In this document: one piece after another, positions 51,415 to 64,000 of the stretch | Layout: each line of letters opens with the position of its first letter | Numbering within the stretch: the first letter of the stretch is position 1 | Assembly: GCA_016794625.1 (NCBI GenBank) | Contig: JAEUGY010000004.1 | Location: forward strand, 13,287-77,286 | DNA from: Opitutaceae bacterium | GTDB taxonomy: Bacteria; Verrucomicrobiota; Verrucomicrobiia; Opitutales; Opitutaceae | Direction: 5' to 3' | DNA: 64,000 nucleotides | Translations under genes and position numbers: made by a program | The notes under the pieces: generated by a model | Told to the model about the DNA's origin: nothing | The model's input: only the letters and a program-made list of their open reading frames with translations | The model's database searches: none

Positions 51415-52018
51415 GGTGCTTGGCTATCCGCGACGACACGAGTGTCGAGGAATTCCTGCTTACAAAGGAATAGGGAACCGAAACGAAACATCTGGGTCCG
51501 TCAGCCCACGATCGCATCGTGTCTGATTTTTAACTACAGTATTGCTGTTACAAGCGATTGTCCGTCCAGCCGGCGGTTTCGTGGGGTGAAACACCCAGGG
51601 CACGCCCGCCCTTCCGCCAATCGCGGGTGCGACACGGGCCGCGGGGAGCGACGCGAACGAACGGCCGAGACGAGCGACCGCACAATTTGCACGATGTGGG
51701 CGTGCACATTGCAACGCCGCCGGGAAAACCCGTGGGGGGGGGAAATTCCACGCGATTTCTGCGTATTGGCGCCGCGGCGCGTCTCGCGCCGGTCGCGACT
51801 CCTACACTTTGGGCATTTCTTTACGAACCCGCCTCGTCACACCCGGCGGCGCGCGGCGGCCGGAAAACACCGACGATCTGAACCTCCAGGACCCGGAGCG
51901 CCCCCCGGATCGCCTGACAGGCATTCTCCGATGCCTGACAGTGCACATGGGTGAAAACCTGACGTTCGTATCCATCCTTTTGGTTCATGCAGCGGGCGGG
52001 AGTGACGAATTCAGGTCC

Positions 52019-54505
52019 ATGAAGTTGCGAACCCGGCTCGTGTTCGCAGGTGTGGCTTTGTCTGCCCTGCCCCTGGCGACCGTCTGCGGCGTGCTCTGGC
52101 TGCAGGGCAGCCGGCTGGCCACACGTTCCGCGGAGCAGGTCAATCATCTTGTCCTGGAGAGCCTCGACGACCGGTTGCGCCAGTCCATCGCCCTCGCGGA
52201 TGCGCTCCGCTCGGAGCTGGAGCTCGAAACACGGAGCCTGCTCGCTCGTCTGACCGCGGATGTGGCCCGAGCGGGCGGCATCGGCACCGTGGCTTCCGCC
52301 GTGGCGGACTGGGAGTCCACCAACCAGTTCAACCAGGGCAAGAGTCGGATCTCCCTTCCCACCCTCGTGGTGGGCGGAGTAAACCTGCCCGCCCAGAGCG
52401 ACCCCGCCGTGCCGGTTCCATTTGTGGACGATGTCCTGCACCGTCCCGGGGCCACCGCCACCATCTTCCAGCGAATGAACGAGTCCGGGGACATGCTCCG
52501 GGTGGCTTCAAGCGTGCGCAATGCACAGGGACGAAGGGCGATCGGAACCTACATCCCGACGGCCATGCCGGATGGAAAACCGAATCCCGTCCTCGCCACG
52601 GTGCTGAAGGGGGAGCGTTTTGTCGGCCGCGCGTTCGTGGTCAATCAGTGGTACGTCGCCGCCTATCAGCCGTTCCGGGACGCGGCGGGCAAGGTGGCCG
52701 GCATGCTTTATGTGGGGATTCCTGAAGCCACGGCCCTGGAGAATGTGAAGGCCGCCTTCGGGCAAACCGCAATCGGCGAACACGGGCACTTGTTTGCCAT
52801 TAACACCAAGGGCGCGGACGCCGGCCGGTACGTCATTTCGAAGGGCGGTACGCAGGATGGGCAGCTGATGCCGGACGAGACCGGCACGGATGGCATCAAT
52901 CTGGGCCGGACGCTGATCGCGACCGCACCTACGCTCGCCCCCGGAGCCACGGGCGGACTCAGGCACCTCGGACGGGAAAACAAGGACGCCGCGCTCCGGC
53001 CGCGGATCCTGCGCTACACCTACTATGCTCCGTGGGACTGGGTGGTCGCAGCGGTGGCTTACGAGGACGAAATCGGCCACGTCCAGGCCACCCTGACCGA
53101 GGGCATCCGCTCGTTCCTGCTGGTGAGCGGCGGCGTCGGCGCGGGCCTGGTGGTGCTCGGCGGCCTCGTCACGCTGATCCTTGGTCGTTGGTTCGGTCGA
53201 AAACTGGAATCATTTTCGGTGGAGCTCGCGGAGGGCGCCGGTCAGGCCACGGTTGCCACGGATCGCGTCATGGCCTCCGCCCAGACGCTCGCCCATGGCC
53301 AGGGCGCGCAGATCCAGGCGCACGACGAGGTGAGCGAAGCCTTGAATGGTCTGGTGGCCAAACACAGCGAGCGACTCTCCCTGGTGGAGGATGCCCGCCG
53401 ACTGGCCGATGCCACCCAACAGGCGGCGGAGTCATCGGCGGCCAGCATGAACCGTCTCGAATCCTCGCTCGCCGGCATCCAGCAATCGGGCCAGGAAATC
53501 GGCCGGATCATCAGCGTGATCGACGAGATCGCATTTCAAACCAATTTGCTCGCGCTCAACGCCGCGGTCGAGGCGGCCCGGGCCGGCAGTTCGGGAGCCG
53601 GCTTTGCCGTGGTCGCCGATGAGGTGCGAGCCCTCGCCCAGCGCAGCGCCGAGGCGGCCCGCAATTCCCGCGATCGCATCGATGACGCCGTCACCCGTTC
53701 CTGCCAGGGTTCCAGCATTGGCAAGGAAGTGGCCCAAGCCTTGCAGGGCATGGCGACGAACGCCCAGCAGACGCGGGCCCGGATCGCCGAACTGGTCACC
53801 GCGACGCAGTCGGAATCCGAAGTCGCCCATCGCTCGCTCGACACGCTGGCCAAGACCCAGGAAATCGCCCATCACAACGAATCCGCCAGCGAAGCACTCT
53901 CCGAAGCGGTCGCCGTGCTGCGGGAGAGCGAAACCTCGCAGCGCACCGTGATTCGCGACATGCGCGGCCTGGTGTCAGGCCATGGCCTCTCCGCCGGCAA
54001 GGCCGCCGCTGCGCGCGGGACAACCTCCGGCGCCTCCGCTGCCTCCGGCTCCGGTCCGGCATCCGTCGACGCCGAAGAACTCGCCCCGGCCGGACTGCGC
54101 TACGACCCGGACACCATGGCCACCGGCAACGAAAAGGTCGACCGGCAGCACCAAGGCCTGATCGATATCATCAACGAGATCGAACGCGCCCAGCTCAACC
54201 AGTGGCCCGCGGCGCGGGTGACCCCATTGCTCGATTCTCTCGCGAACTACACCGTGAATCACTTCCGCGATGAAGAGCAGATCATGGAGGCGACCGGCTG
54301 CTCCGCCGCCAAACGCAATTGCAAGGCCCACGCCGCCCTGATCGCCAAGTACACCGCCTGGCGCCAGGACTACGACGCCAAGGGACAGCCGACCGAACTC
54401 GTCCGGGACCTCCACCAGTTCCTCACCCAGTGGCTGGTCGGCCATATCTGCCGGATTGATACCTGCCTCAAATCCTGCCAACGCGGCCAGCTCCAGGCCA
54501 GCTGA
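52019..54505 (+). CDS. Methyl-accepting chemotaxis protein with a Cache-like periplasmic sensor, HAMP and a C-terminal hemerythrin domain
   Basis: ATG at 52019 within ORF 51809-54505. The MCP hairpin core is [47 protein letters not shown]. The C-terminal hemerythrin ligand pattern is DRQHQGL, NHFRDEE, KAHAAL and GHICRID. Confidence 0.85.
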
Positions 54506-54534
54506 GGGTTCGCCCGGGAAAAGCGCCCGTGTCC

Positions 54535-54960
54535 GCGGGGTCCGCGACCCCATCTGCATCGGACACTGTCCGCGACGCGCCACCGGCGCCGACGGAGCGG
54601 CGCCCTCCAGGGGAGCACCCTGCGGGTGGCCTGTAGTCCGCGGCCCGTTGGGGGTGGCCTCGCCGAGGCCGCGACGGGACCCACCGGTCCCGCCTCCGTC
54701 CGCCGACGGCTTCACGCGATTCGCCTCTCCGCGGGGTCCGCGACCCCATCTCCAGCGGACACTGTCCGCGACGCGCCACCGGCGCCGACGGAGCGGCGCC
54801 CTCCAGGGGAGCACCGTGCGGGTGGCCTGTAGTCCGCGGCCCGTTGGGGGTGGCCTCGCCGAGGCCGCGACGGGACCCACCGGTCCTGCCCCCGTCCGCC
54901 GACGGCTTCACGCGATTCGCCGCTCCGCGAAGTCCCCACCCCCACCTCCAGCGGACACCG
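54535..54960. repeat. 196-bp tandem duplication (2 full copies plus a degenerate partial third) built from REP-like modules
   Basis: Copy 1 is 54535-54730 and copy 2 is 54731-54926, with about 6 mismatches by hand alignment. A degenerate start of a third copy runs to about 54960. Confidence 0.9.
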
Positions 54961-59388: not shown

Positions 59389-59538
59389 CGGCCTCAGCGA
59401 GGCCACCTCCAACAGAGGCACAAACCTTCCGTTGGAGGTGGGGTCGTCGACCCCGCGGAGATCGGCATCGCTAGAACTGAACGGATGAAAAGAGGCGGGA
59501 CCGCGGGTCCCGTCGCAGCCTCAACGAGGCCGCCTACA
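59389..59538. repeat. REP-like modules between the ABC operon and the STAND gene
   Basis: GCGGCCTCAGCGAGGCCACCTCCAAC is at 59389-59413. Its partner GTTGGAGGTGGGGTCGTCGACCCC is at 59431-59454. GGGACCGCGGGTCCCGTCGCAGCCTCAACGAGGCCGCCTACA is at 59497-59538. Confidence 0.7.
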
Positions 59539-59580: not shown

Positions 59581-62500
59581 TCAGTCGGCGCCGCCCAGCC
59601 TGGCCAGTTCCTGCTCGACGGCTTTGCGCAGCTCGCGCACGGAACGAAGCTTTTGGGGCTCGGCCGGCATGGAGGTGAGGTCCGCGAGCGCGGCGGTGAA
59701 GAGGCGGCGTTGTTCGACCGGGTTCGTCTCGATCAGACCTTGGCCGAAGACCACCAGGGAATAGTCGTAGCGAGAAAACGAATCGTTCGCCCCGCCCCTG
59801 CGCTGTGCGTCGATCGTCTCGTAGGCCTGGGCGATCAACACCTTCGCTTCGTCGAACACGCCGGCTCGTGCCAACGCCACGCCGGCCAGTGCGCGATCGT
59901 TGGCGAGATCGTAGAGCGCGTCCCGCGACTGGGCACCGGGCCTGGGCCGACCCCGCACGAGTTCACGCGCGGGAGCCACCGCTTCGCTCCAGCGCTGGAG
60001 AATAAGAAGACTGGATACCATGACCCGGTTGCAGTTGTCCAGCAACCAGTCCTGCCCCTGCGTCTCGGCACCGGATACCGGCTTCAGGTTATCCAGTCGG
60101 TTTCGGACCGAAACCGCTAGTTCCAGAGCCTCGGCTACGCGGCCGGCGCCGAGGAGGTATTGTGATTTCACGCCGTCATCCCAGGCAGGCAGCACGAGGC
60201 GGAAGTAGCTTTCCGGATCCACCTGCGCGCTGGCCAGGGCCCGCAGACGTCGGCCGGCGGCCAGAGCGGAGTCAATGTCGGTGTCACGACCTACCTCCAG
60301 CTCGGCCTCCAGATTGTCGACCTGGCTCACCTCGAAAGCCGTGCCGCGCAGCGTGCTGGGGGAACCGCCCTCTGAAATCGCGGACCTGACGTTTTCGCGC
60401 GACTGGGCGATGGCCTCCCGCAAGCGACCCTGGCTCGCCATCGCCCGCGCCGTCATGCCCAGAGCGACCCGGCGATTGTTCCGGGCCGCGTCGTTGGTCG
60501 GGTCAAACCGGAGGTACTCGACCCAGTCCGCAGCGGTTTCACGGGCACTCTTCTCCGCCGCGACGGCGTCGTGCCCATCCAGCGCAATCTGGCCGAGCCG
60601 GCTTTTGAGCAGCGCGCGCGAGCGCAGGGCGCCGAGATTGCCCGCCTCGGCCGTGACCGCCTCGTCCGCGATCAGGATGGCCTCGGCAAGCAGCTGCTTG
60701 GTTTCGGCATCACGACCGAGACTGCGCAGCGTCTCCGTCAGCCAGGCGACGTTTTCACCGTGCAATACCCGGGCCCGCTGCCGCGAGTCGTCGCTTTCCA
60801 TCAGTTCCCGAAAACAGAGGCGCCCACGCTCAAGGACCTCCAGCGCTTCGGAAAAACTGCGGTCGCGCATGAGCACGAAGCCGAGGTTCATCAACTGGCG
60901 CCCCAGCTCCATCTTGAAACTCAGTGGGGCACCGGGCCCCTTCGCGGGAGGATCGATCAAAGCAAGTCCACGCCTACCCAGTGCCACGGCAGAAATCGGT
61001 CGGTTCTGGCTGTAGGCGTTGCGACTCTGCTGGCGAATCACGGCGGCCAATCCGAGAATCACCTCCGGCGTCGTCGTTCCCGAAGCCGAGAGTTTTGTGA
61101 ACAGGGCCTCGGCCTCCTGCAGGGGCGCCTCCGCCTCCCGCGTTTTGCCCTGCAGCGACAACGCCGCGCCCAGCCGGCCGAGCGCGATCGCCCGGTAGCG
61201 ATCGCTCTGCTCATTTCGCAGCTCAGGGGGGAGGGCATCGAAGTAGGCGAGGGCCCGCCGAGCCAGGCCGCTGACAATCTCAATCCGACCGGTCGGTTCC
61301 AGCTGCGTGTAAAGATCGTCGAGGAGGAACGTGACCAGCTTCTCCGCCTCGCCCCGCGAAAGTTGCGCGCGGTCGCGCTCCATCGCGACCCGCTCCTCGG
61401 CCTGGCGGGCCCGGCGCAAATTGACATAGCCCCAGACCGCCGCCCCGATCGCGCCGACCGCCAGCACGGTGCACACGCCGGCCACCAGGCGCGCCCGCAC
61501 CGCCGCCGCCCGCGCCAGCGACTCCTGGGCGCGCGCGCCCGCGAGTTGGGCTTCGGTTTCCTCGCGGCGACGCGCCTCGGCCGCCCGGGCCTCGCGCTCC
61601 TGGCGGATGTCGCGGCTGGCCCGCACCACGCCGCAGAGCACGTCGTGCGTCAGCTCCACGCGGCGCAGGTCGAGGCGATCCTCAACGCGCAGCAGGCGGC
61701 GGTCGACCAACACGGCGAGGGCCTCCGCACTGGCGCCGGCCGCGGCAAAGGCCTTTTTCACCCGTTCCTCGGCGATGCTCTCGCGGTAACCGGAATCGGT
61801 CAGGAGCTCGTCTTCAATGAAGGTGCGCACGCCGTCCGGCTGATCGGCAAGGGCGCGACGGTAGAACTCCGTCAAAATTGTCTCGCGCGAACCCGCAAGC
61901 AGGTCGGCGGAAATCGTCGCATGCCCTTCGGCCTGGCGCACGGTGTTCAGCTCGCGGCAGATCAGGCTAAGGAGCGAAGGCTCCACCTCGGCACGTTCCA
62001 GCTCCGCGCCGCCGGCCACGAACCGGACGATCGCCGCGGCCACCTCCGGACTGACGAGCGCGCCGCCGGGACCGGTGACCGCGGTGAGCGCCTGGGGGCC
62101 CGTCATGCGGGCGAGGCGCATGCGGTTCTGCGTGACCGAGGGCATCTTCGCCTTCAGTCCCTCGAGGTGGGCGAGGTAGTCCTCGCGCAACGCGATGAGC
62201 AGGCGGTAGTCGGCGCGGGTGAAGTCAAACCGCTCAAGGTCGGCTTCGTCCTTTTCCAGTTTGGCCTCGAGGGCCCGCGGTGGACGGTTCTCGACCAGGT
62301 CGGCGAGGTCCTCGATGAACTGCGCCGCCCGCTGGCGGCCGAAGTCATCGCTCTGCGCGAGGGTGAAGATCTCCTCGAACTGGTCGAAGATCAGCAGCGG
62401 CACGAGCGTGCGGCCGTCCGCGTCCTTCAGCACGTCATCGCGGTGGTGCAGGAATTCCCAGAGTGTTTCCCCCGCGGTGGACACCCCCGCCTGCGTCCAG

Positions 62501-62853
62501 TGTCCCGCCGACCGGGTGGTGCGCAGGATGGCCTGCTTGATCTGCTCGGAGGGTGGGGCCGACTCGCGACTGTAGTCGATGCGCACGTACACCGGGCAGT
62601 AGCCATCGGGCCGCAGCCGGGGCACGAGCCCCGCGCGCAGGATCGAGGTTTTTCCCAGGCCGGACTGGCCGAACAGGATGGTCAGGAGTTTGCGCTGCAC
62701 GCGCCGGCCGAGCTCGGCCACCTCCTCGTCGCGACCGTGAAAGTACGCGCGGGTCTCCTCCGTGAACGACGCCAGGCCCAGCCAGGGGTTGGTCGGATCG
62801 ACGGAGGGTGAACGTTCGGCCTTCACGGGGGATGCGGGCGGGCGGTGGCTCAC
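59581..62853 (-). CDS. STAND-type P-loop NTPase (nSTAND1-like) with an internal hydrophobic helix and a C-terminal TPR-like array
   Basis: 1090-aa ORF with a GTG start. The N-terminus is NPWLGLASFTEETRAYFHGRDEEV. Walker A is GQSGLGKTS, Walker B is LLIFDQFEE, followed by LIALREDYL. An Arg/Glu-rich coiled coil follows, then LVAGVCTVLAVGAIGAAVWGY, then about 600 aa of helical repeats. Confidence 0.85.
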   Translation of the reverse strand: MSHRPPASPVKAERSPSVDPTNPWLGLASFTEETRAYFHGRDEEVAELGRRVQRKLLTILFGQSGLGKTSILRAGLVPRLRPDGYCPVYVRIDYSRESAPPSEQIKQAILRTTRSAGHWTQAGVSTAGETLWEFLHHRDDVLKDADGRTLVPLLIFDQFEEIFTLAQSDDFGRQRAAQFIEDLADLVENRPPRALEAKLEKDEADLERFDFTRADYRLLIALREDYLAHLEGLKAKMPSVTQNRMRLARMTGPQALTAVTGPGGALVSPEVAAAIVRFVAGGAELERAEVEPSLLSLICRELNTVRQAEGHATISADLLAGSRETILTEFYRRALADQPDGVRTFIEDELLTDSGYRESIAEERVKKAFAAAGASAEALAVLVDRRLLRVEDRLDLRRVELTHDVLCGVVRASRDIRQEREARAAEARRREETEAQLAGARAQESLARAAAVRARLVAGVCTVLAVGAIGAAVWGYVNLRRARQAEERVAMERDRAQLSRGEAEKLVTFLLDDLYTQLEPTGRIEIVSGLARRALAYFDALPPELRNEQSDRYRAIALGRLGAALSLQGKTREAEAPLQEAEALFTKLSASGTTTPEVILGLAAVIRQQSRNAYSQNRPISAVALGRRGLALIDPPAKGPGAPLSFKMELGRQLMNLGFVLMRDRSFSEALEVLERGRLCFRELMESDDSRQRARVLHGENVAWLTETLRSLGRDAETKQLLAEAILIADEAVTAEAGNLGALRSRALLKSRLGQIALDGHDAVAAEKSARETAADWVEYLRFDPTNDAARNNRRVALGMTARAMASQGRLREAIAQSRENVRSAISEGGSPSTLRGTAFEVSQVDNLEAELEVGRDTDIDSALAAGRRLRALASAQVDPESYFRLVLPAWDDGVKSQYLLGAGRVAEALELAVSVRNRLDNLKPVSGAETQGQDWLLDNCNRVMVSSLLILQRWSEAVAPARELVRGRPRPGAQSRDALYDLANDRALAGVALARAGVFDEAKVLIAQAYETIDAQRRGGANDSFSRYDYSLVVFGQGLIETNPVEQRRLFTAALADLTSMPAEPQKLRSVRELRKAVEQELARLGGAD

Positions 62854-62860
62854 GGTAGGG

Positions 62861-64000
62861 TCAGCGCGGACGGGCCGCGATCAGTTCCTTGATTCTCCGG
62901 GCAAAGTCGGGCGTGACCTCGCCGCCGGGCAGGCGGGTGAAGTGCACAGCCGTGAAACGCTCCGGCACCAGGGCGCCGGATTCCGGGGTGGAGTCGATGC
63001 AGACCGGCAGGATGAACACCGCGCCCTCGGCAAAGTTGCGGACCCGGTCGACGGCATAACTCCACTCGCGCCGGAAGTACGCCTCGAGCCGGCGCTGAGT
63101 CGTGGCCGAGATCACCGGCACAAAGTAGGCGCAGCGGGCGATGTTCTGGCGGATCTTGCGGTCATAGTCGTCGCCGCCTTCCAGCCGGTCCATGTCGAAC
63201 CACGTGGTGACCTCGGCGGCGTCGAGTCCTGCCTTCAGTTTCTGCACCGCCGCCAGGTCCTCGCGCGCGTAGCTGATGAACACCGCGTTTTCCGGCATCT
63301 CCCGCTCCGGCGGCAGAAAGCGCAACGGCTGGACCGCTGGCGCGGCCACCGGCGCGAGGGTGTCGCGTCCGCGGCGGCGCATCCATCGGGTATGCAGCTC
63401 CTCGACGAACTTCTCCGCGCCGGAATAGACCCGGGTGCGCACACTGACCTGCTGCAGAAAGGCCATCAGCCGCTGATCCTGCAGCGACTGGCTGTCGGCC
63501 ACGATTTCCCCGACATCGCGCGGGTCGGACAGCCGGCGGCGTTTCGCCATGCGCAGGAAGAGCCGGGCGAGCCAGTTCGAGAAATTGCTGCCGATGAGCA
63601 GGAGGTGGTTGTGCTCCAGCTCGTGGAACAGCTTCTCCGGCGTAAGGTGCTCGCTCTGGAGCGCGCACACGAACTCCAGCGTGTCCTCGTCGGAAATGAC
63701 ATAGGTGGGCGAGGCCGACAGCCGGCCCAGCAGGTGGTACACCACGGGCCGGACCTGTTGTTCCCGTTCGACGGTGAGATCGGCCACGCGATTCGGGGAA
63801 TAGGCGATGACCTCGGTCGAGGCGGCGCCGGCGAAACGCTCCGCATTGATCGCCTGCTCGAGCAGCGGATCGAATGTCGTGGTGATGAACAGGTCGAAAT
63901 CCGAGATCTGCGCCAGCTGTCGCAGCGCCCGCGGCACCGCAAAGGTCGTTTCCCGCAGGATCGTGCGGAGCCGGGTGTACGCTTCCTCGCGCCGGCCGCG
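62861..64000 (-). CDS. SIR2-like (SIR2_2-type) + TIR domain fusion protein, N-terminus beyond the window edge
   Basis: The frame stays open to nt 64000 (…RGRREEAYTRLRTILRETTFAVPRALRQ…). SIR2_2-like blocks are DFDLFITTTFDPLLEQAI, VVYHLLGRL and HLLLIGSNFSNW. The TIR-like C-terminus is AVFISYAREDLAAVQKLKAGL…YFVPVISATT…FRREWSYAV. Its stop lies 7 nt before the next gene's start. Confidence 0.82.
   Translation of the reverse strand, partial: RGRREEAYTRLRTILRETTFAVPRALRQLAQISDFDLFITTTFDPLLEQAINAERFAGAASTEVIAYSPNRVADLTVEREQQVRPVVYHLLGRLSASPTYVISDEDTLEFVCALQSEHLTPEKLFHELEHNHLLLIGSNFSNWLARLFLRMAKRRRLSDPRDVGEIVADSQSLQDQRLMAFLQQVSVRTRVYSGAEKFVEELHTRWMRRRGRDTLAPVAAPAVQPLRFLPPEREMPENAVFISYAREDLAAVQKLKAGLDAAEVTTWFDMDRLEGGDDYDRKIRQNIARCAYFVPVISATTQRRLEAYFRREWSYAVDRVRNFAEGAVFILPVCIDSTPESGALVPERFTAVHFTRLPGGEVTPDFARRIKELIAARPR

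What the first reader, a model, noticed from the sequence alone, without database searches (positions are those of the whole stretch)
59581..64000. SIR2-TIR fusion + STAND NTPase-TM-TPR gene pair: candidate undescribed NAD-targeting defence/conflict system
Seen in the sequence:
- Two co-directional minus-strand genes are separated by only 7 nt. The stop TGA is at 62861-62863 and the GTG start is at 62853.
- The upstream product combines SIR2_2-like blocks (DFDLFITTTFDPLLEQAI, VVYHLLGRL, HLLLIGSNFSNW) with a C-terminal TIR-like domain (AVFISYARED..., YFVPVIS..., REWSYA).
- The downstream 1090-aa product has the N-terminal signature of nSTAND1-type NTPases: LGLASFTEE..YFHGRDEE, Walker A GQSGLGKTS, Walker B LLIFDQFEE, then ALREDYL. 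A coiled coil, one hydrophobic helix and a long TPR-like array follow.

Established knowledge:
- TIR and SIR2 domains are NAD+-consuming or signal-generating effectors in Thoeris, DSR1/2, SIR2-HerA, short-pAgo systems and some Avs proteins.
- STAND NTPases with repeat arrays act as ligand-sensing switches in Avs and in the nSTAND conflict systems catalogued by Kaur, Burroughs, Iyer and Aravind (2020).

Inference:
- The STAND-TPR protein would be the sensor and the dual SIR2+TIR protein a trans-acting effector.
- As far as I recall, this does not fit named systems. There is no SLOG or Macro partner as in Thoeris, no HerA, and no Argonaute. The effector is not fused to the NTPase as in typical Avs.
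- The right-hand context is outside the window, so additional components cannot be excluded.
Basis: partly seen in the sequence, partly recalled or inferred. Interest (0 to 1): 0.85.

Follow-up and report, generated by a model that had tools for sequence, protein, structure and literature searches.

The report
Membrane STAND sensor with pseudo-SIR2–TIR partner
This is a real, always-paired and widespread two-gene module that no tool or paper I could consult names: a membrane-anchored ATPase switch and a partner enzyme whose TIR half looks active while its SIR2 half has lost the known catalytic residues, most likely an immune-type NAD+ signalling system, though nothing has been tested experimentally.

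Summary
**Observation.** Confirmed. The domain calls, motifs, coordinates and 7-nt spacing all hold.

- The SIR2–TIR gene runs off the window. About 89 N-terminal residues are missing; full length is about 468 aa.
- The SIR2-like domain has a ThsA-like fold. The two catalytic residues of ThsA align with Thr and Leu, and GAGxS is replaced by IIGxEL. A double NADase is therefore unlikely. The TIR keeps its catalytic Glu.
- One hydrophobic helix is present in every complete homologue. It separates the NTPase from a fast-evolving TPR-like solenoid, so the sensor is probably outside the cytoplasm.
- The nSTAND1 name comes from Kaur 2021, not Kaur 2020.

**Linkage.**
- All 76 informative loci out of 80 species-representative genomes keep the pair.
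- The two relatives checked at 38–40% identity keep it too.
- One protein fuses the two halves.

**Accessory partners.** Relatives add a TPR-S–cyclase gene in Proteobacteria, or a SLATT pore protein with an unassigned N-terminal domain in Opitutaceae. These resemble Thoeris type VII/VIII effectors. In the nearest strain, 99.1% identical, the SLATT gene is truncated.

**Cautions.** The pair is not in defence islands and is absent from phages. It is under very strong purifying selection.

**Verdict.** A new variant of STAND-gated TIR conflict systems. Interest 0.6.

The parts
62861..64000 (-). 3' part (379 codons plus stop) of the SIR2-like–TIR gene. The 5' ~270 nt lie beyond the window edge.
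   Evidence: The frame is open to base 64000. It is 99% identical to P0001 (468 aa) and 96% identical to P0002. The full gene is seen in strain L088, which is 99.1% identical in DNA.
63368..64000 (-). SIR2-like domain, residues 90-300 in full-length numbering. ThsA-like fold without the canonical catalytic residues.
   Evidence: Pfam SIR2_2 matches at 3.8e-12. The AF2 model has pLDDT 90. The top Foldseek hits are ThsA 8bto/7uxt/6lhx, EfAvs5, KomC and DSR2.
63869..63883 (-). 'TTTFD' motif. T131 (63875-63877) occupies the position of the catalytic Asn of ThsA (TTNYD).
   Evidence: Shown by the profile alignment to SeThsA 7uxt. Chain residue 137 equals N113 after a tag offset of 24. The column reads T41 S5 N3 among 53 representatives.
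63725..63739 (-). 'YHLLG' motif. L180 (63728-63730) sits at the position of the catalytic His of ThsA (KLHG). H178 (63734-63736) lies two residues upstream.
   Evidence: From. The L180 column reads L24 F21 M7. The H178 column reads H36 Q10.
62903..63292 (-). TIR domain, residues 326-455. The presumed catalytic Glu E401 is at 63065-63067.
   Evidence: Pfam TIR_2 matches at 2.4e-17. The best solved relatives are SPARTA TIR-APAZ, E 3e-11. E401 aligns with their Glu77, whose E77A mutant lacks NADase activity. E401 is conserved in 52 of 53 representatives.
59581..62853 (-). nSTAND1–TM–TPR gene: 1090 aa from the GTG at 62853, or 1081 aa from the GTG at 62826 as annotated at NCBI.
   Evidence: From. 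It is identical to P0271, 'hypothetical protein JNJ82_00755 [Opitutaceae bacterium]'.
61573..62787 (-). nSTAND1 NTPase module, residues 23-427. Walker A GQSGLGKTS is at 62644-62670 (K68 at 62650-62652). Walker B LLIFDQFEE is at 62371-62397.
   Evidence: Pfam PF20703 matches at 1.3e-30. The Walker residues are invariant in 40 homologues. dN/dS is 0.04.
61423..61488 (-). Single hydrophobic, presumably transmembrane, helix LVAGVCTVLAVGAIGAAVWGYV (residues 456-477).
   Evidence: A helix in this position is present in every complete homologue. Net positive charge lies on the N-terminal side.
59584..61296 (-). C-terminal TPR-like alpha-solenoid, residues 520-1090. This is the fast-evolving presumed sensor and is probably extracytoplasmic.
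   Evidence: AF2 pLDDT is above 90. Foldseek matches are TPR superhelices. Identity to proteobacterial homologues is 25-35%, against 72-80% for the NTPase. dN/dS is 0.20 against 0.04.
59496..59512 (-). Terminator-like hairpin with a T-rich tail, about 70 nt after the nSTAND1 stop codon.
   Evidence: From. The number of such sites in the region is not above chance, so this is only suggestive of the operon end.

Best explanation
**What it is.** A two-gene operon encoding a STAND-gated TIR conflict (immune-type) module.

**Sensor switch.**
- The nSTAND1 protein has a cytoplasmic P-loop NTPase and one transmembrane helix.
- Its variable TPR-like solenoid most likely faces the periplasm.

**Proposed steps.**
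1. On sensing its cue, the NTPase part oligomerises. This is inferred from how STAND proteins work.
2. The oligomer recruits and activates the separately encoded partner.
3. The partner's TIR domain, with its catalytic Glu intact, cleaves NAD+.
4. The partner's SIR2-like domain lacks the Asn, the His and the glycine-rich loop. It would serve as a non-catalytic docking, assembly or ligand-binding domain.

**Output.**
- Relatives place TPR-S–cyclase or SLATT genes beside this TIR clade, so the TIR product is probably an NAD-derived signal read by such effectors.
- Where these are missing or truncated, as in the window's lineage, NAD+ depletion itself, or an effector encoded elsewhere, would be the output.

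**Shown versus inferred.**
- Shown: domain identities, obligate pairing, motif states, the conserved helix, and accessory gene linkage.
- Inferred: topology, activation by oligomerisation, signal production, and a defence role.
For: **Domain identities.**

**Obligate pairing.**
The best 80 loci are 74-94% identical.
- 76 of these 80 loci have an nSTAND1 gene directly downstream. The other 4 end within about 200 nt.
- Relatives at 38-40% identity keep the partner, which is itself 40-45% identical.
- Stop and start codons overlap by 4 nt in L004 and L090.
- P0193 fuses an nSTAND1 NTPase to SIR2–TIR.

**Effector-type variants.** One inserts bDLD3 between SIR2 and TIR. Others add a caspase domain or an extra TIR.

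**TIR is competent.** E401 aligns with SPARTA E77 and is conserved in 52 of 53.

**SIR2 is degenerate.**

**Sensor features.**
- A TM helix is present in every complete homologue.
- Charge bias fits N-terminus-in topology.
- The C-terminal array evolves about 5 times faster than the NTPase.

**Accessory partners.**
- TPR-S–cyclase is found in 42 loci, either downstream or divergently upstream.
- A TPR-S gene heads the operon in P. caribensis.
- A SLATT gene lies divergently next to TIRs of this clade.
- Yirmiya et al. 2025 showed that TIR+SLATT (type VII) and TIR+TPR-effector (type VIII) Thoeris systems signal by cADPR.
Against: - Only 3 of 76 immediate neighbours hit any PADLOC model. The other neighbours are metabolic genes.
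- There are no matches in 50,697 phage records, and only one distant match, on a 2.5-Mb chromid, among 72,556 plasmid records.
- Purifying selection is very strong: dN/dS 0.007-0.03 for SIR2–TIR.
- SIR2–TIR is 74-94% identical across two phyla. This would be unusual for a defence gene.
- SIR2 inactivity rests on one weak profile alignment (E 0.005). The aligned motif columns are high-confidence. H178 lies on the same strand and might substitute.
- Topology is predicted only from hydrophobicity and charge. AF2 confidence in that segment is below 50.
- The closest solved relatives of the TIR are NAD-depleting effectors (SPARTA), not ThsB.
- No experiment exists.
Confidence: 0.5

Rival explanations
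1. Both SIR2 and TIR are active NAD+-consuming domains. Together they form a doubly armed effector that a cytoplasmic Avs-like STAND-TPR sensor activates in trans.
For: - Pfam SIR2_2 scores above its cut-off.
- The fold is closest to the active NADases ThsA, DSR2, Avs5 and KomC.
- D133 of TTNYD is conserved, and H178 is present in the window's subfamily.
- The SIR2-like part is as strongly conserved as the TIR.
Against: - N113 and H153 of SeThsA align with Thr and Leu/Phe/Met. N112A and H152A abolish BcThsA activity.
- GAGxS is replaced by IIG-x-E/D-L.
- H178 is Gln, Lys or another residue in 17 of 53 representatives.
- The sensor array sits behind a conserved TM helix.
Confidence: 0.12
2. This is not an anti-invader system but a physiological transmembrane signalling pathway. 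An extracytoplasmic TPR receptor with an NTPase switch would report an envelope or environmental cue through NAD-derived and/or cNMP second messengers.
For: - Neighbours are housekeeping genes and there are no defence islands.
- The pair is absent from phages and nearly absent from plasmids.
- Constraint is strong and the pair is present in hundreds of species.
- A class III cyclase partner occurs in 42 loci.
Against: - Genomic context differs even among Opitutaceae.
- The sensor array diversifies, and one MAG carries two copies of the pair (L055 and L065).
- Family variants carry Death-like bDLD3 and caspase domains, which are typical of conflict systems.
- The SLATT pore partner is a cell-killing effector type.
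Confidence: 0.2
3. The pair is only the upstream half of a three-part Thoeris-like pathway and cannot act without a signal-reading effector. In the window's lineage the SLATT effector gene is truncated, so this copy would be crippled or rewired.
For: - L088 is 99.1% identical to the window. It keeps only the first 159 residues of the SLATT protein upstream of the pair.
- The full SLATT gene is present in L085, L001, L005, L007, L009 and L010.
- TPR-S partners persist down to 31% identity.
Against: - Both genes are intact and under strong purifying selection in this lineage.
- Many loci have no third gene at all: L012, L015, L017 and L022.
- An effector could be encoded elsewhere in the genome.
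Confidence: 0.15

Closest known systems
Avs/AVAST and other bacterial NLR-like STAND defence proteins, including SIR2–STAND EfAvs5 and TIR-bearing Avs
   Same: - A P-loop STAND NTPase with a C-terminal TPR-type repeat sensor controls an NAD-targeting effector domain.
- The SIR2-like domain resembles the SIR2 of EfAvs5 in fold.
   Different: - The effector is a separate protein rather than an N-terminal fusion.
- The NTPase belongs to the nSTAND1 clade and has no PADLOC Avs hit.
- A conserved TM helix puts the repeat array outside the cytoplasm.
- The SIR2 part lacks the catalytic residues.
Thoeris type I (ThsB TIR + ThsA SIR2–SLOG)
   Same: - It uses TIR and SIR2 domains.
- The whole SIR2–TIR protein is structurally closest to ThsA, matching over both domains. 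Its C-terminal Rossmann-like domain aligns with the SLOG domain.
   Different: - TIR and SIR2 are in one polypeptide.
- The roles look inverted: SIR2 is degenerate, and the C-terminal domain is a TIR with a catalytic Glu rather than a ligand-binding SLOG.
- A STAND NTPase partner is obligatory.
- The ThsB model matches only marginally, E 0.0036.
Thoeris types VII and VIII (TIR + SLATT effector ThsH; TIR + TPR-containing effector ThsI; Yirmiya et al., bioRxiv 2025.12.03.692087)
   Same: Relatives of the pair have a SLATT protein or a TPR-S protein next to the TIR gene. This matches the effector types shown to respond to cADPR.
   Different: - The TIR carries a pseudo-SIR2 domain and needs an nSTAND1 partner.
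- The TPR-S partner carries a nucleotide cyclase rather than a CMP hydrolase.
- The window itself holds no such effector.
- No sequence comparison with ThsH or ThsI was possible.
nSTAND1 NTPase–FGS / EAD (bDLD3) counter-invader systems of Kaur, Burroughs, Iyer and Aravind 2021 (PMC8195603)
   Same: - The NTPase clade is the same.
- Effectors such as TIR are coupled to the NTPase by fusion or by adaptors.
- One family member carries bDLD3 between SIR2 and TIR.
   Different: - The sensor is a TM-anchored TPR-like array, not an FGS lectin domain.
- The window's proteins have no Death-like adaptor.
- No diversity-generating retroelement was seen near the pair.
SPARTA TIR-APAZ
   Same: It is the closest solved TIR by sequence, E 3e-11. 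The catalytic Glu77 aligns with E401.
   Different: There is no APAZ domain and no Argonaute partner. Activation is presumably by the STAND partner rather than by nucleic acid.

Membership tests
Pfam nSTAND1 (PF20703) STAND NTPase | Profile match above the gathering score, with intact Walker A and Walker B motifs | tested here: met
   The score is 107.8 bits against a cut-off of 27.1. GQSGLGKTS and DQFEE are invariant in 40 homologues.
SIR2_2 (PF13289) defence-type sirtuin NADases (ThsA, DSR2) | Profile match and SIR2 fold | tested here: met
   The score is 46.9 bits against a cut-off of 24.5. Foldseek gives ThsA, Avs5, KomC and DSR2 at probability 1.00.
SIR2_2 (PF13289) defence-type sirtuin NADases (ThsA, DSR2) | Catalytic Asn (TTNYD) and His (KLHG), plus the glycine-rich NAD loop | tested here: not met
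   N113 aligns with T131 and H153 aligns with L180. The loop reads IIGxEL. This rests on one profile alignment with E 0.005, but with high posterior probability at both motifs.
TIR NADases (TIR_2, PF13676) | Profile match and the catalytic Glu | tested here: met
   The score is 64 bits against a cut-off of 28. E401 aligns with SPARTA E77 and is conserved in 52 of 53. Enzyme activity was not tested.
Avs/AVAST | A single protein with an N-terminal effector, an Avs-type STAND NTPase and a cytoplasmic TPR sensor, recognised by the Avs models | tested here: not met
   The nSTAND1 protein has no PADLOC hit. The effector is a separate gene. A TM helix lies between the NTPase and the repeats.
Thoeris type I/II | ThsB TIR together with ThsA (SIR2–SLOG or Macro–TM) | tested here: not met
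   The ThsB1 model matches only at E 0.0036, and there is no ThsA hit. The window holds no SLOG or Macro gene.
Thoeris type VII/VIII-like (TIR + SLATT, or TIR + TPR effector) | An effector gene with a SLATT or TPR sensor next to the TIR gene, and a cADPR signal | tested here: inconclusive
   SLATT or TPR-S genes are adjacent in relatives. The window has none, and the SLATT gene is truncated in the nearest strain. The signal molecule cannot be tested here.
Defence-island resident system | Enrichment of known defence genes among the neighbours | tested here: not met
   Only 3 of 76 immediate neighbours in 38 loci hit a PADLOC model at E<=1e-5. No background rate was computed.
SIR2–HerA, DSR1/2, short pAgo (SPARSA/SPARTA) | A HerA, long DSR C-terminal region, or Argonaute/APAZ partner | tested here: not met
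   The only PADLOC hits are partial TIR-domain hits, plus E>0.02 traces for LmuA and Aga_SIR2. The neighbouring genes are an ABC transporter and an MCP.

The most novel reading that the evidence does not exclude
**The reading.** The pair would be the core of an 'outside-in' bacterial immune receptor pathway.

**Proposed steps.**
1. A transmembrane NLR-like STAND protein reads an extracytoplasmic cue with a periplasmic, diversifying TPR array. The cue could be phage adsorption or injection, envelope damage, or a competitor's molecule.
2. It passes the signal across the membrane to its NTPase.
3. The NTPase switches on a cytoplasmic TIR enzyme held by a pseudo-sirtuin domain.
4. The NAD-derived product is read by TPR-S or SLATT effectors.

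**Why it would be novel.** Together with the neighbouring TIR–TM–TPR proteins, this would be a prokaryotic counterpart of Toll-like-receptor topology: outside repeats, one TM helix and an inside TIR. Here that topology would be combined with NLR-type gating.
Probability: 0.3. Interest if true: 0.85.

Novelty: new variant of a known kind. Interest (0 to 1): 0.6.

Why it matters
**What would be new if the model holds.**
- It would add a widespread module to the bacterial NLR/TIR immune repertoire. The module is present in hundreds of species of Opitutaceae, Casimicrobiaceae, Usitatibacteraceae and Steroidobacteraceae.
- It would be a STAND sensor that looks outward through the membrane.
- It would be a pseudo-enzyme sirtuin domain used as a scaffold next to an active TIR.
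- It would link STAND gating to Thoeris-like second-messenger effectors, namely SLATT and TPR-S.

**Why it may have been missed.** The pair is not on mobile elements and not in defence islands, so guilt-by-association screens would tend to miss it.

**Experimental entry point.** A cultured carrier of a distant version exists, Paraburkholderia caribensis MBA4.

Tried and rejected
- **Exact look-up of the 1090-aa product.** It failed because the public record starts at the second GTG. This was solved through P0271.
- **SIR2 part against solved structures.** A single-sequence search of P0001 found only TIR hits. A family profile was needed to reach SeThsA.
- **N-terminal domain of the SLATT protein.**
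  - Pfam gave only sub-threshold cpYpsA and Nuc_deoxyrib_tr hits, E 0.02-0.06.
  - The profile search against PDB found nothing.
  - None of the 120 listed homologues had a precomputed Pfam domain other than SLATT_1/SLATT_3.
  - 'SLOG-like' therefore stays a motif-based guess.
- **Shared sensor module.** I tested whether the nSTAND1 repeat array is homologous to the TPR array of the neighbouring TIR–TM–TPR protein. BLASTP found no similarity, so this idea was rejected.
- **Other downstream genes as third components.** The genes in Opitutaceae loci are Met-zincin, PQQ dehydrogenase, amidohydrolase, ankyrin/cytochrome and aminotransferase. They are ordinary and not shared between loci.
- **Neighbour scan.** The first set of 150 ORFs exceeded the residue limit. 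It was redone with 76 ORFs.
- **Fold search with the full nSTAND1 model.** TPR proteins dominated the results, so it said nothing about the NTPase clade.
- **Literature.**
  - No paper held the terms 'SIR2-TIR' or 'TIR-SIR2', the Pfam name pair, or 'TPR-S' together with 'TIR', with 'conflict systems', or with 'STAND', 'SIR2' and 'TIR'.
  - Burroughs & Aravind 2020 (J Bacteriol 202:e00365-20) is cited by Yirmiya et al. for a TPR domain predicted to take part in TIR signalling. I take it to be the source of TPR-S. It is not held, so I cannot exclude that the TPR-S/SIR2–TIR/nSTAND1 triad is catalogued there.
- **DefenseFinder.** It was not available.

Full report
**1. What is in the window**

- Two minus-strand genes lie at the right edge of the window.
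- The downstream gene spans 59581-62853 and encodes 1090 aa from a GTG.
  - An identical NCBI protein, P0271 'hypothetical protein JNJ82_00755 [Opitutaceae bacterium]', starts at the second GTG, nine codons further in, giving 1081 aa.
- The upstream gene ends with TGA at 62861-62863, 7 nt before the first GTG.
  - Its reading frame stays open to base 64000, so the window cuts it.
  - Full-length relatives are 462-473 aa. P0001 is 99% identical and P0002 is 96% identical. About 89 N-terminal residues are therefore missing.

**2. Domain identities**

- Pfam supports SIR2_2 (3.8e-12), TIR_2 (2.4e-17) and nSTAND1 (1.3e-30), all above the curated cut-offs.
- PADLOC-DB 2.0 gives only partial TIR-domain hits for the first protein and nothing for the second. 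NCBIfam gives nothing meaningful.
- An AlphaFold2 model of the full-length partner, built from 53 diverse relatives, has mean pLDDT 90.
  - Its best structural matches are ThsA (8bto, 7uxt, 6lhx, 8wc0), matched over both domains.
  - Next come EfAvs5 (SIR2–STAND), KomC and DSR2.
- The model of the nSTAND1 protein has mean pLDDT 80.
  - Residues 520-1090 form a regular helical-hairpin solenoid with pLDDT above 90.
  - That solenoid matches TPR superhelices such as Ctr9, Ski3 and OGT.

**3. The SIR2-like domain lacks the known catalytic residues**

- A profile of the family's SIR2 part finds one solved relative, SeThsA 7uxt (E 0.005). The alignment has high posterior probability at both catalytic motifs.
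- Chain residues N137 and H177 are N113 and H153 of the native protein, after a tag offset of 24. These are the catalytically important residues of SeThsA.
- The equivalent N112A and H152A mutants of BcThsA lose NAD+ cleavage.
- In the alignment they pair with T131 and L180. Among 53 representatives at 50% clustering or lower:
  - the T131 column reads T41, S5, N3;
  - the L180 column reads L24, F21, M7.
- The three members that keep Asn (TTNYD, TTNLD, TTNPD) support the register of the alignment.
- The His of 'YHLLG' (H178) lies two residues upstream and is His in only 36 of 53.
- The first Rossmann loop reads V-I-P-I-I/V-G-x-E/D-L instead of GAGxS.
- The domain is nevertheless at least as conserved as the TIR. 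Mean column identity is 48% for the SIR2 part against 40% for the whole protein. It is therefore functional but probably not a canonical NADase.
- I cannot exclude that H178 substitutes, because it lies at the end of the same strand.

**4. The TIR looks competent**

- The closest solved TIRs are SPARTA TIR-APAZ chains (E 3e-11), followed by PdTIR, AbTir and Cat1.
- E401 aligns with Glu77 of TIR-APAZ. I counted this from the printed alignment, which starts at chain residue 3.
- E77A abolishes SPARTA NADase activity.
- E401 is conserved in 52 of 53 representatives.

**5. The pair is obligate and ancient**

Of these, 562 encode a relative.
- The best 80 loci are 74-94% identical. They come from Opitutaceae, Casimicrobiaceae, Usitatibacteraceae, other Burkholderiales and Steroidobacteraceae.
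- In 76 of these 80 loci an nSTAND1 homologue follows directly on the same strand. The other four contigs end within about 200 nt.
- Two relatives with only 38-40% identical SIR2–TIR proteins are followed by nSTAND1 genes that are 40-45% identical.
- In L004 and L090 the two genes overlap by 4 nt.
- The 50%-clustered library holds 1649 clusters with E<=1e-30. The listed full-length hits keep the roughly 460-aa architecture down to 38% identity.
- One protein, P0193, fuses an nSTAND1 NTPase to SIR2–TIR.
- Other variants insert a bacterial Death-like domain (bDLD3) between SIR2 and TIR, or add a caspase domain or a second TIR. bDLD3 and caspases are hallmarks of the counter-invader systems in which nSTAND1 was defined.

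**6. The sensor is behind a membrane helix**

- Every complete homologue has one strongly hydrophobic segment 20-30 residues after the NTPase module.
- The flank on the NTPase side carries more net positive charge than the other flank. This fits N-terminus-in, C-terminus-out topology.
- Sequence conservation falls along the protein.

| Residues | Mean column identity |
|---|---|
| 51-400 | 0.82-0.92 |
| beyond 800 | 0.44-0.48 |

- Against proteobacterial homologues the NTPase is 72-80% identical, while the array is 25-35% identical.
- Between the window and L001, dN/dS differs by region.

| Region | dN/dS (window vs L001) |
|---|---|
| NTPase | 0.04 |
| Residues 441-560 | 0.07 |
| C-terminal array | 0.20 |
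| SIR2–TIR | 0.03 |

- SIR2–TIR gives dN/dS 0.007 against L085.
- The pattern is a constrained switch and effector with a diversifying sensor. The sensor's position outside the cytoplasm is inferred, not shown.

**7. Accessory genes and what lies beyond the window**

- Proteobacterial loci:
  - Forty-two carry a roughly 630-aa protein with a TPR-S domain and a class III nucleotide cyclase domain.
  - It sits either directly downstream on the same strand or divergently upstream. Adjacency kept across two arrangements argues for a functional link.
- Paraburkholderia caribensis MBA4 is a cultured strain:
  - Its SIR2–TIR is only 31% identical.
  - The operon is TPR-S/MAP3K_TRAF_bd, then SIR2–TIR, then nSTAND1.
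- Opitutaceae closest to the window (L001, L005, L007, L009, L010, L085):
  - They carry a divergent 495-aa protein with SLATT_3 and SLATT_1 domains.
  - Its conserved N-terminal domain has a GxTGHR…GGD…GGT pattern. That domain gives only sub-threshold cpYpsA/SLOG-type hits.
- The SLATT family always sits next to TIR genes of the same clade:
  - TIR–TPR in L089 and L091;
  - a TIR–TPR, SIR2–TIR, nSTAND1 operon in L090.
- The TIR of the neighbouring TIR–TM–TPR protein in L085 is 49% identical to the TIR of SIR2–TIR.
- Yirmiya et al. (bioRxiv 2025.12.03.692087) showed that TIR+SLATT (Thoeris type VII) and TIR+TPR-effector (type VIII) systems signal with cADPR. They note that this TPR domain had been predicted to take part in TIR signalling. 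I take it to correspond to TPR-S.
- Strain L088 is 99.1% identical to the window in DNA:
  - It has an identical nSTAND1 protein and the same left-hand synteny.
  - It shows the missing right-hand context: the full SIR2–TIR gene, then only the first 159 codons of the SLATT gene, then the end of an unrelated gene whose product I did not run against any library.
  - In the window's own lineage the pore part has therefore been lost.

**8. Context argues for caution**

- Of 76 immediate neighbours in 38 loci, 15 are TPR-S proteins, 12 carry cyclase domains and 3 are SLATT proteins. The rest are metabolic or transport genes.
- Only 3 of the 76 hit any PADLOC model.
- The window's flank is a MacB-type ABC exporter and a Cache–MCP–hemerythrin gene. 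That flank is shared only with the nearest relatives, L001 and L005. Other Opitutaceae have different flanks.
- There is no phage match, and only one distant match on a chromid.
- These facts, together with the very strong purifying selection, leave room for a physiological signalling role.

**9. Interpretation**

- The best-supported reading is a STAND-gated TIR module.
  - The sensor array is transmembrane and probably faces outward.
  - The NTPase switch is cytoplasmic.
  - The trans-acting partner has an active TIR half and a scaffold-like or ligand-binding SIR2-like half.
- The recurrent TPR-S and SLATT partners point to an NAD-derived signal rather than, or in addition to, plain NAD+ depletion.
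- It works like Avs or TIR-NLR systems in its gating, and like Thoeris types VII/VIII in its downstream logic.
- It fails the membership tests for Avs, Thoeris I/II, DSR, SIR2–HerA and pAgo systems.
- No held paper describes it.
- One relevant paper, Burroughs & Aravind 2020, could not be read.

**10. Verdict**

- It needs three corrections: the SIR2 half is a pseudo-SIR2, the sensor is extracytoplasmic, and accessory effectors exist in relatives.
- I rate it a new variant of a known kind, with interest 0.6.

Noticed in passing
window 54532-54958: A 196-bp tandem repeat with 2.2 copies and 94% matches. It lies in the spacer between the Cache–MCP–hemerythrin gene and the HlyD-type gene. The 99.1%-identical strain L088 appears to hold one copy fewer, judged from overlapping BLAST pieces.
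   Followed up: partly
L088 336-911 (just beyond the right edge of the window in the nearest strain): A remnant of the SLATT gene. Only the first 159 residues are kept, 91% identical to the L085 protein. The two SLATT membrane domains are gone.
   Followed up: partly
L085 166-3405; L089 4922-6844; L090 4589-6913; L091 2985-6754; L008 9833-12184: N-terminal TIR followed by a long TPR array; in L085 a hydrophobic stretch (RVAIILALAGAALAAGVVAFL), which I take to be a TM helix, separates them, and the other loci were not checked for one. Where a TM helix is present the layout is like a Toll-like receptor. In all but L008 these genes sit next to the SLATT gene (in L008 downstream of the pair). The L085 TIR is 49% identical to the TIR of SIR2–TIR.
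   Followed up: partly
L073 11341-17761; L055 and L065: One locus has two tandem nSTAND1 paralogues after a single SIR2–TIR gene. One MAG, MFD02134.bin.1.210, carries two separate copies of the pair.
   Followed up: no
L092 (Paraburkholderia caribensis MBA4 chromid NZ_CP012748, 371058-386356): A cultured strain carries a distant three-gene version: TPR-S/MAP3K_TRAF_bd, then SIR2–TIR, then a shorter 660-aa nSTAND1. The stretch is unannotated in the PLSDB table.
   Followed up: partly
proteins P0193, P0234, P0248, P0239: Architectural variants of the SIR2–TIR family: an nSTAND1–SIR2–TIR fusion, SIR2–bDLD3–TIR, caspase–SIR2–TIR and TIR–SIR2–TIR.
   Followed up: partly
window 51809-54505 (+): A methyl-accepting chemotaxis protein with Cache sensor domains and a C-terminal hemerythrin domain. 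It is unrelated to the finding.
   Followed up: no
Foldseek hit 8rw5 (rank 49 for the nSTAND1 model): A weak structural match of the repeat array to the transmembrane anti-sigma factor DdvA. I note it only as another transmembrane protein with a helical repeat domain.
   Followed up: no
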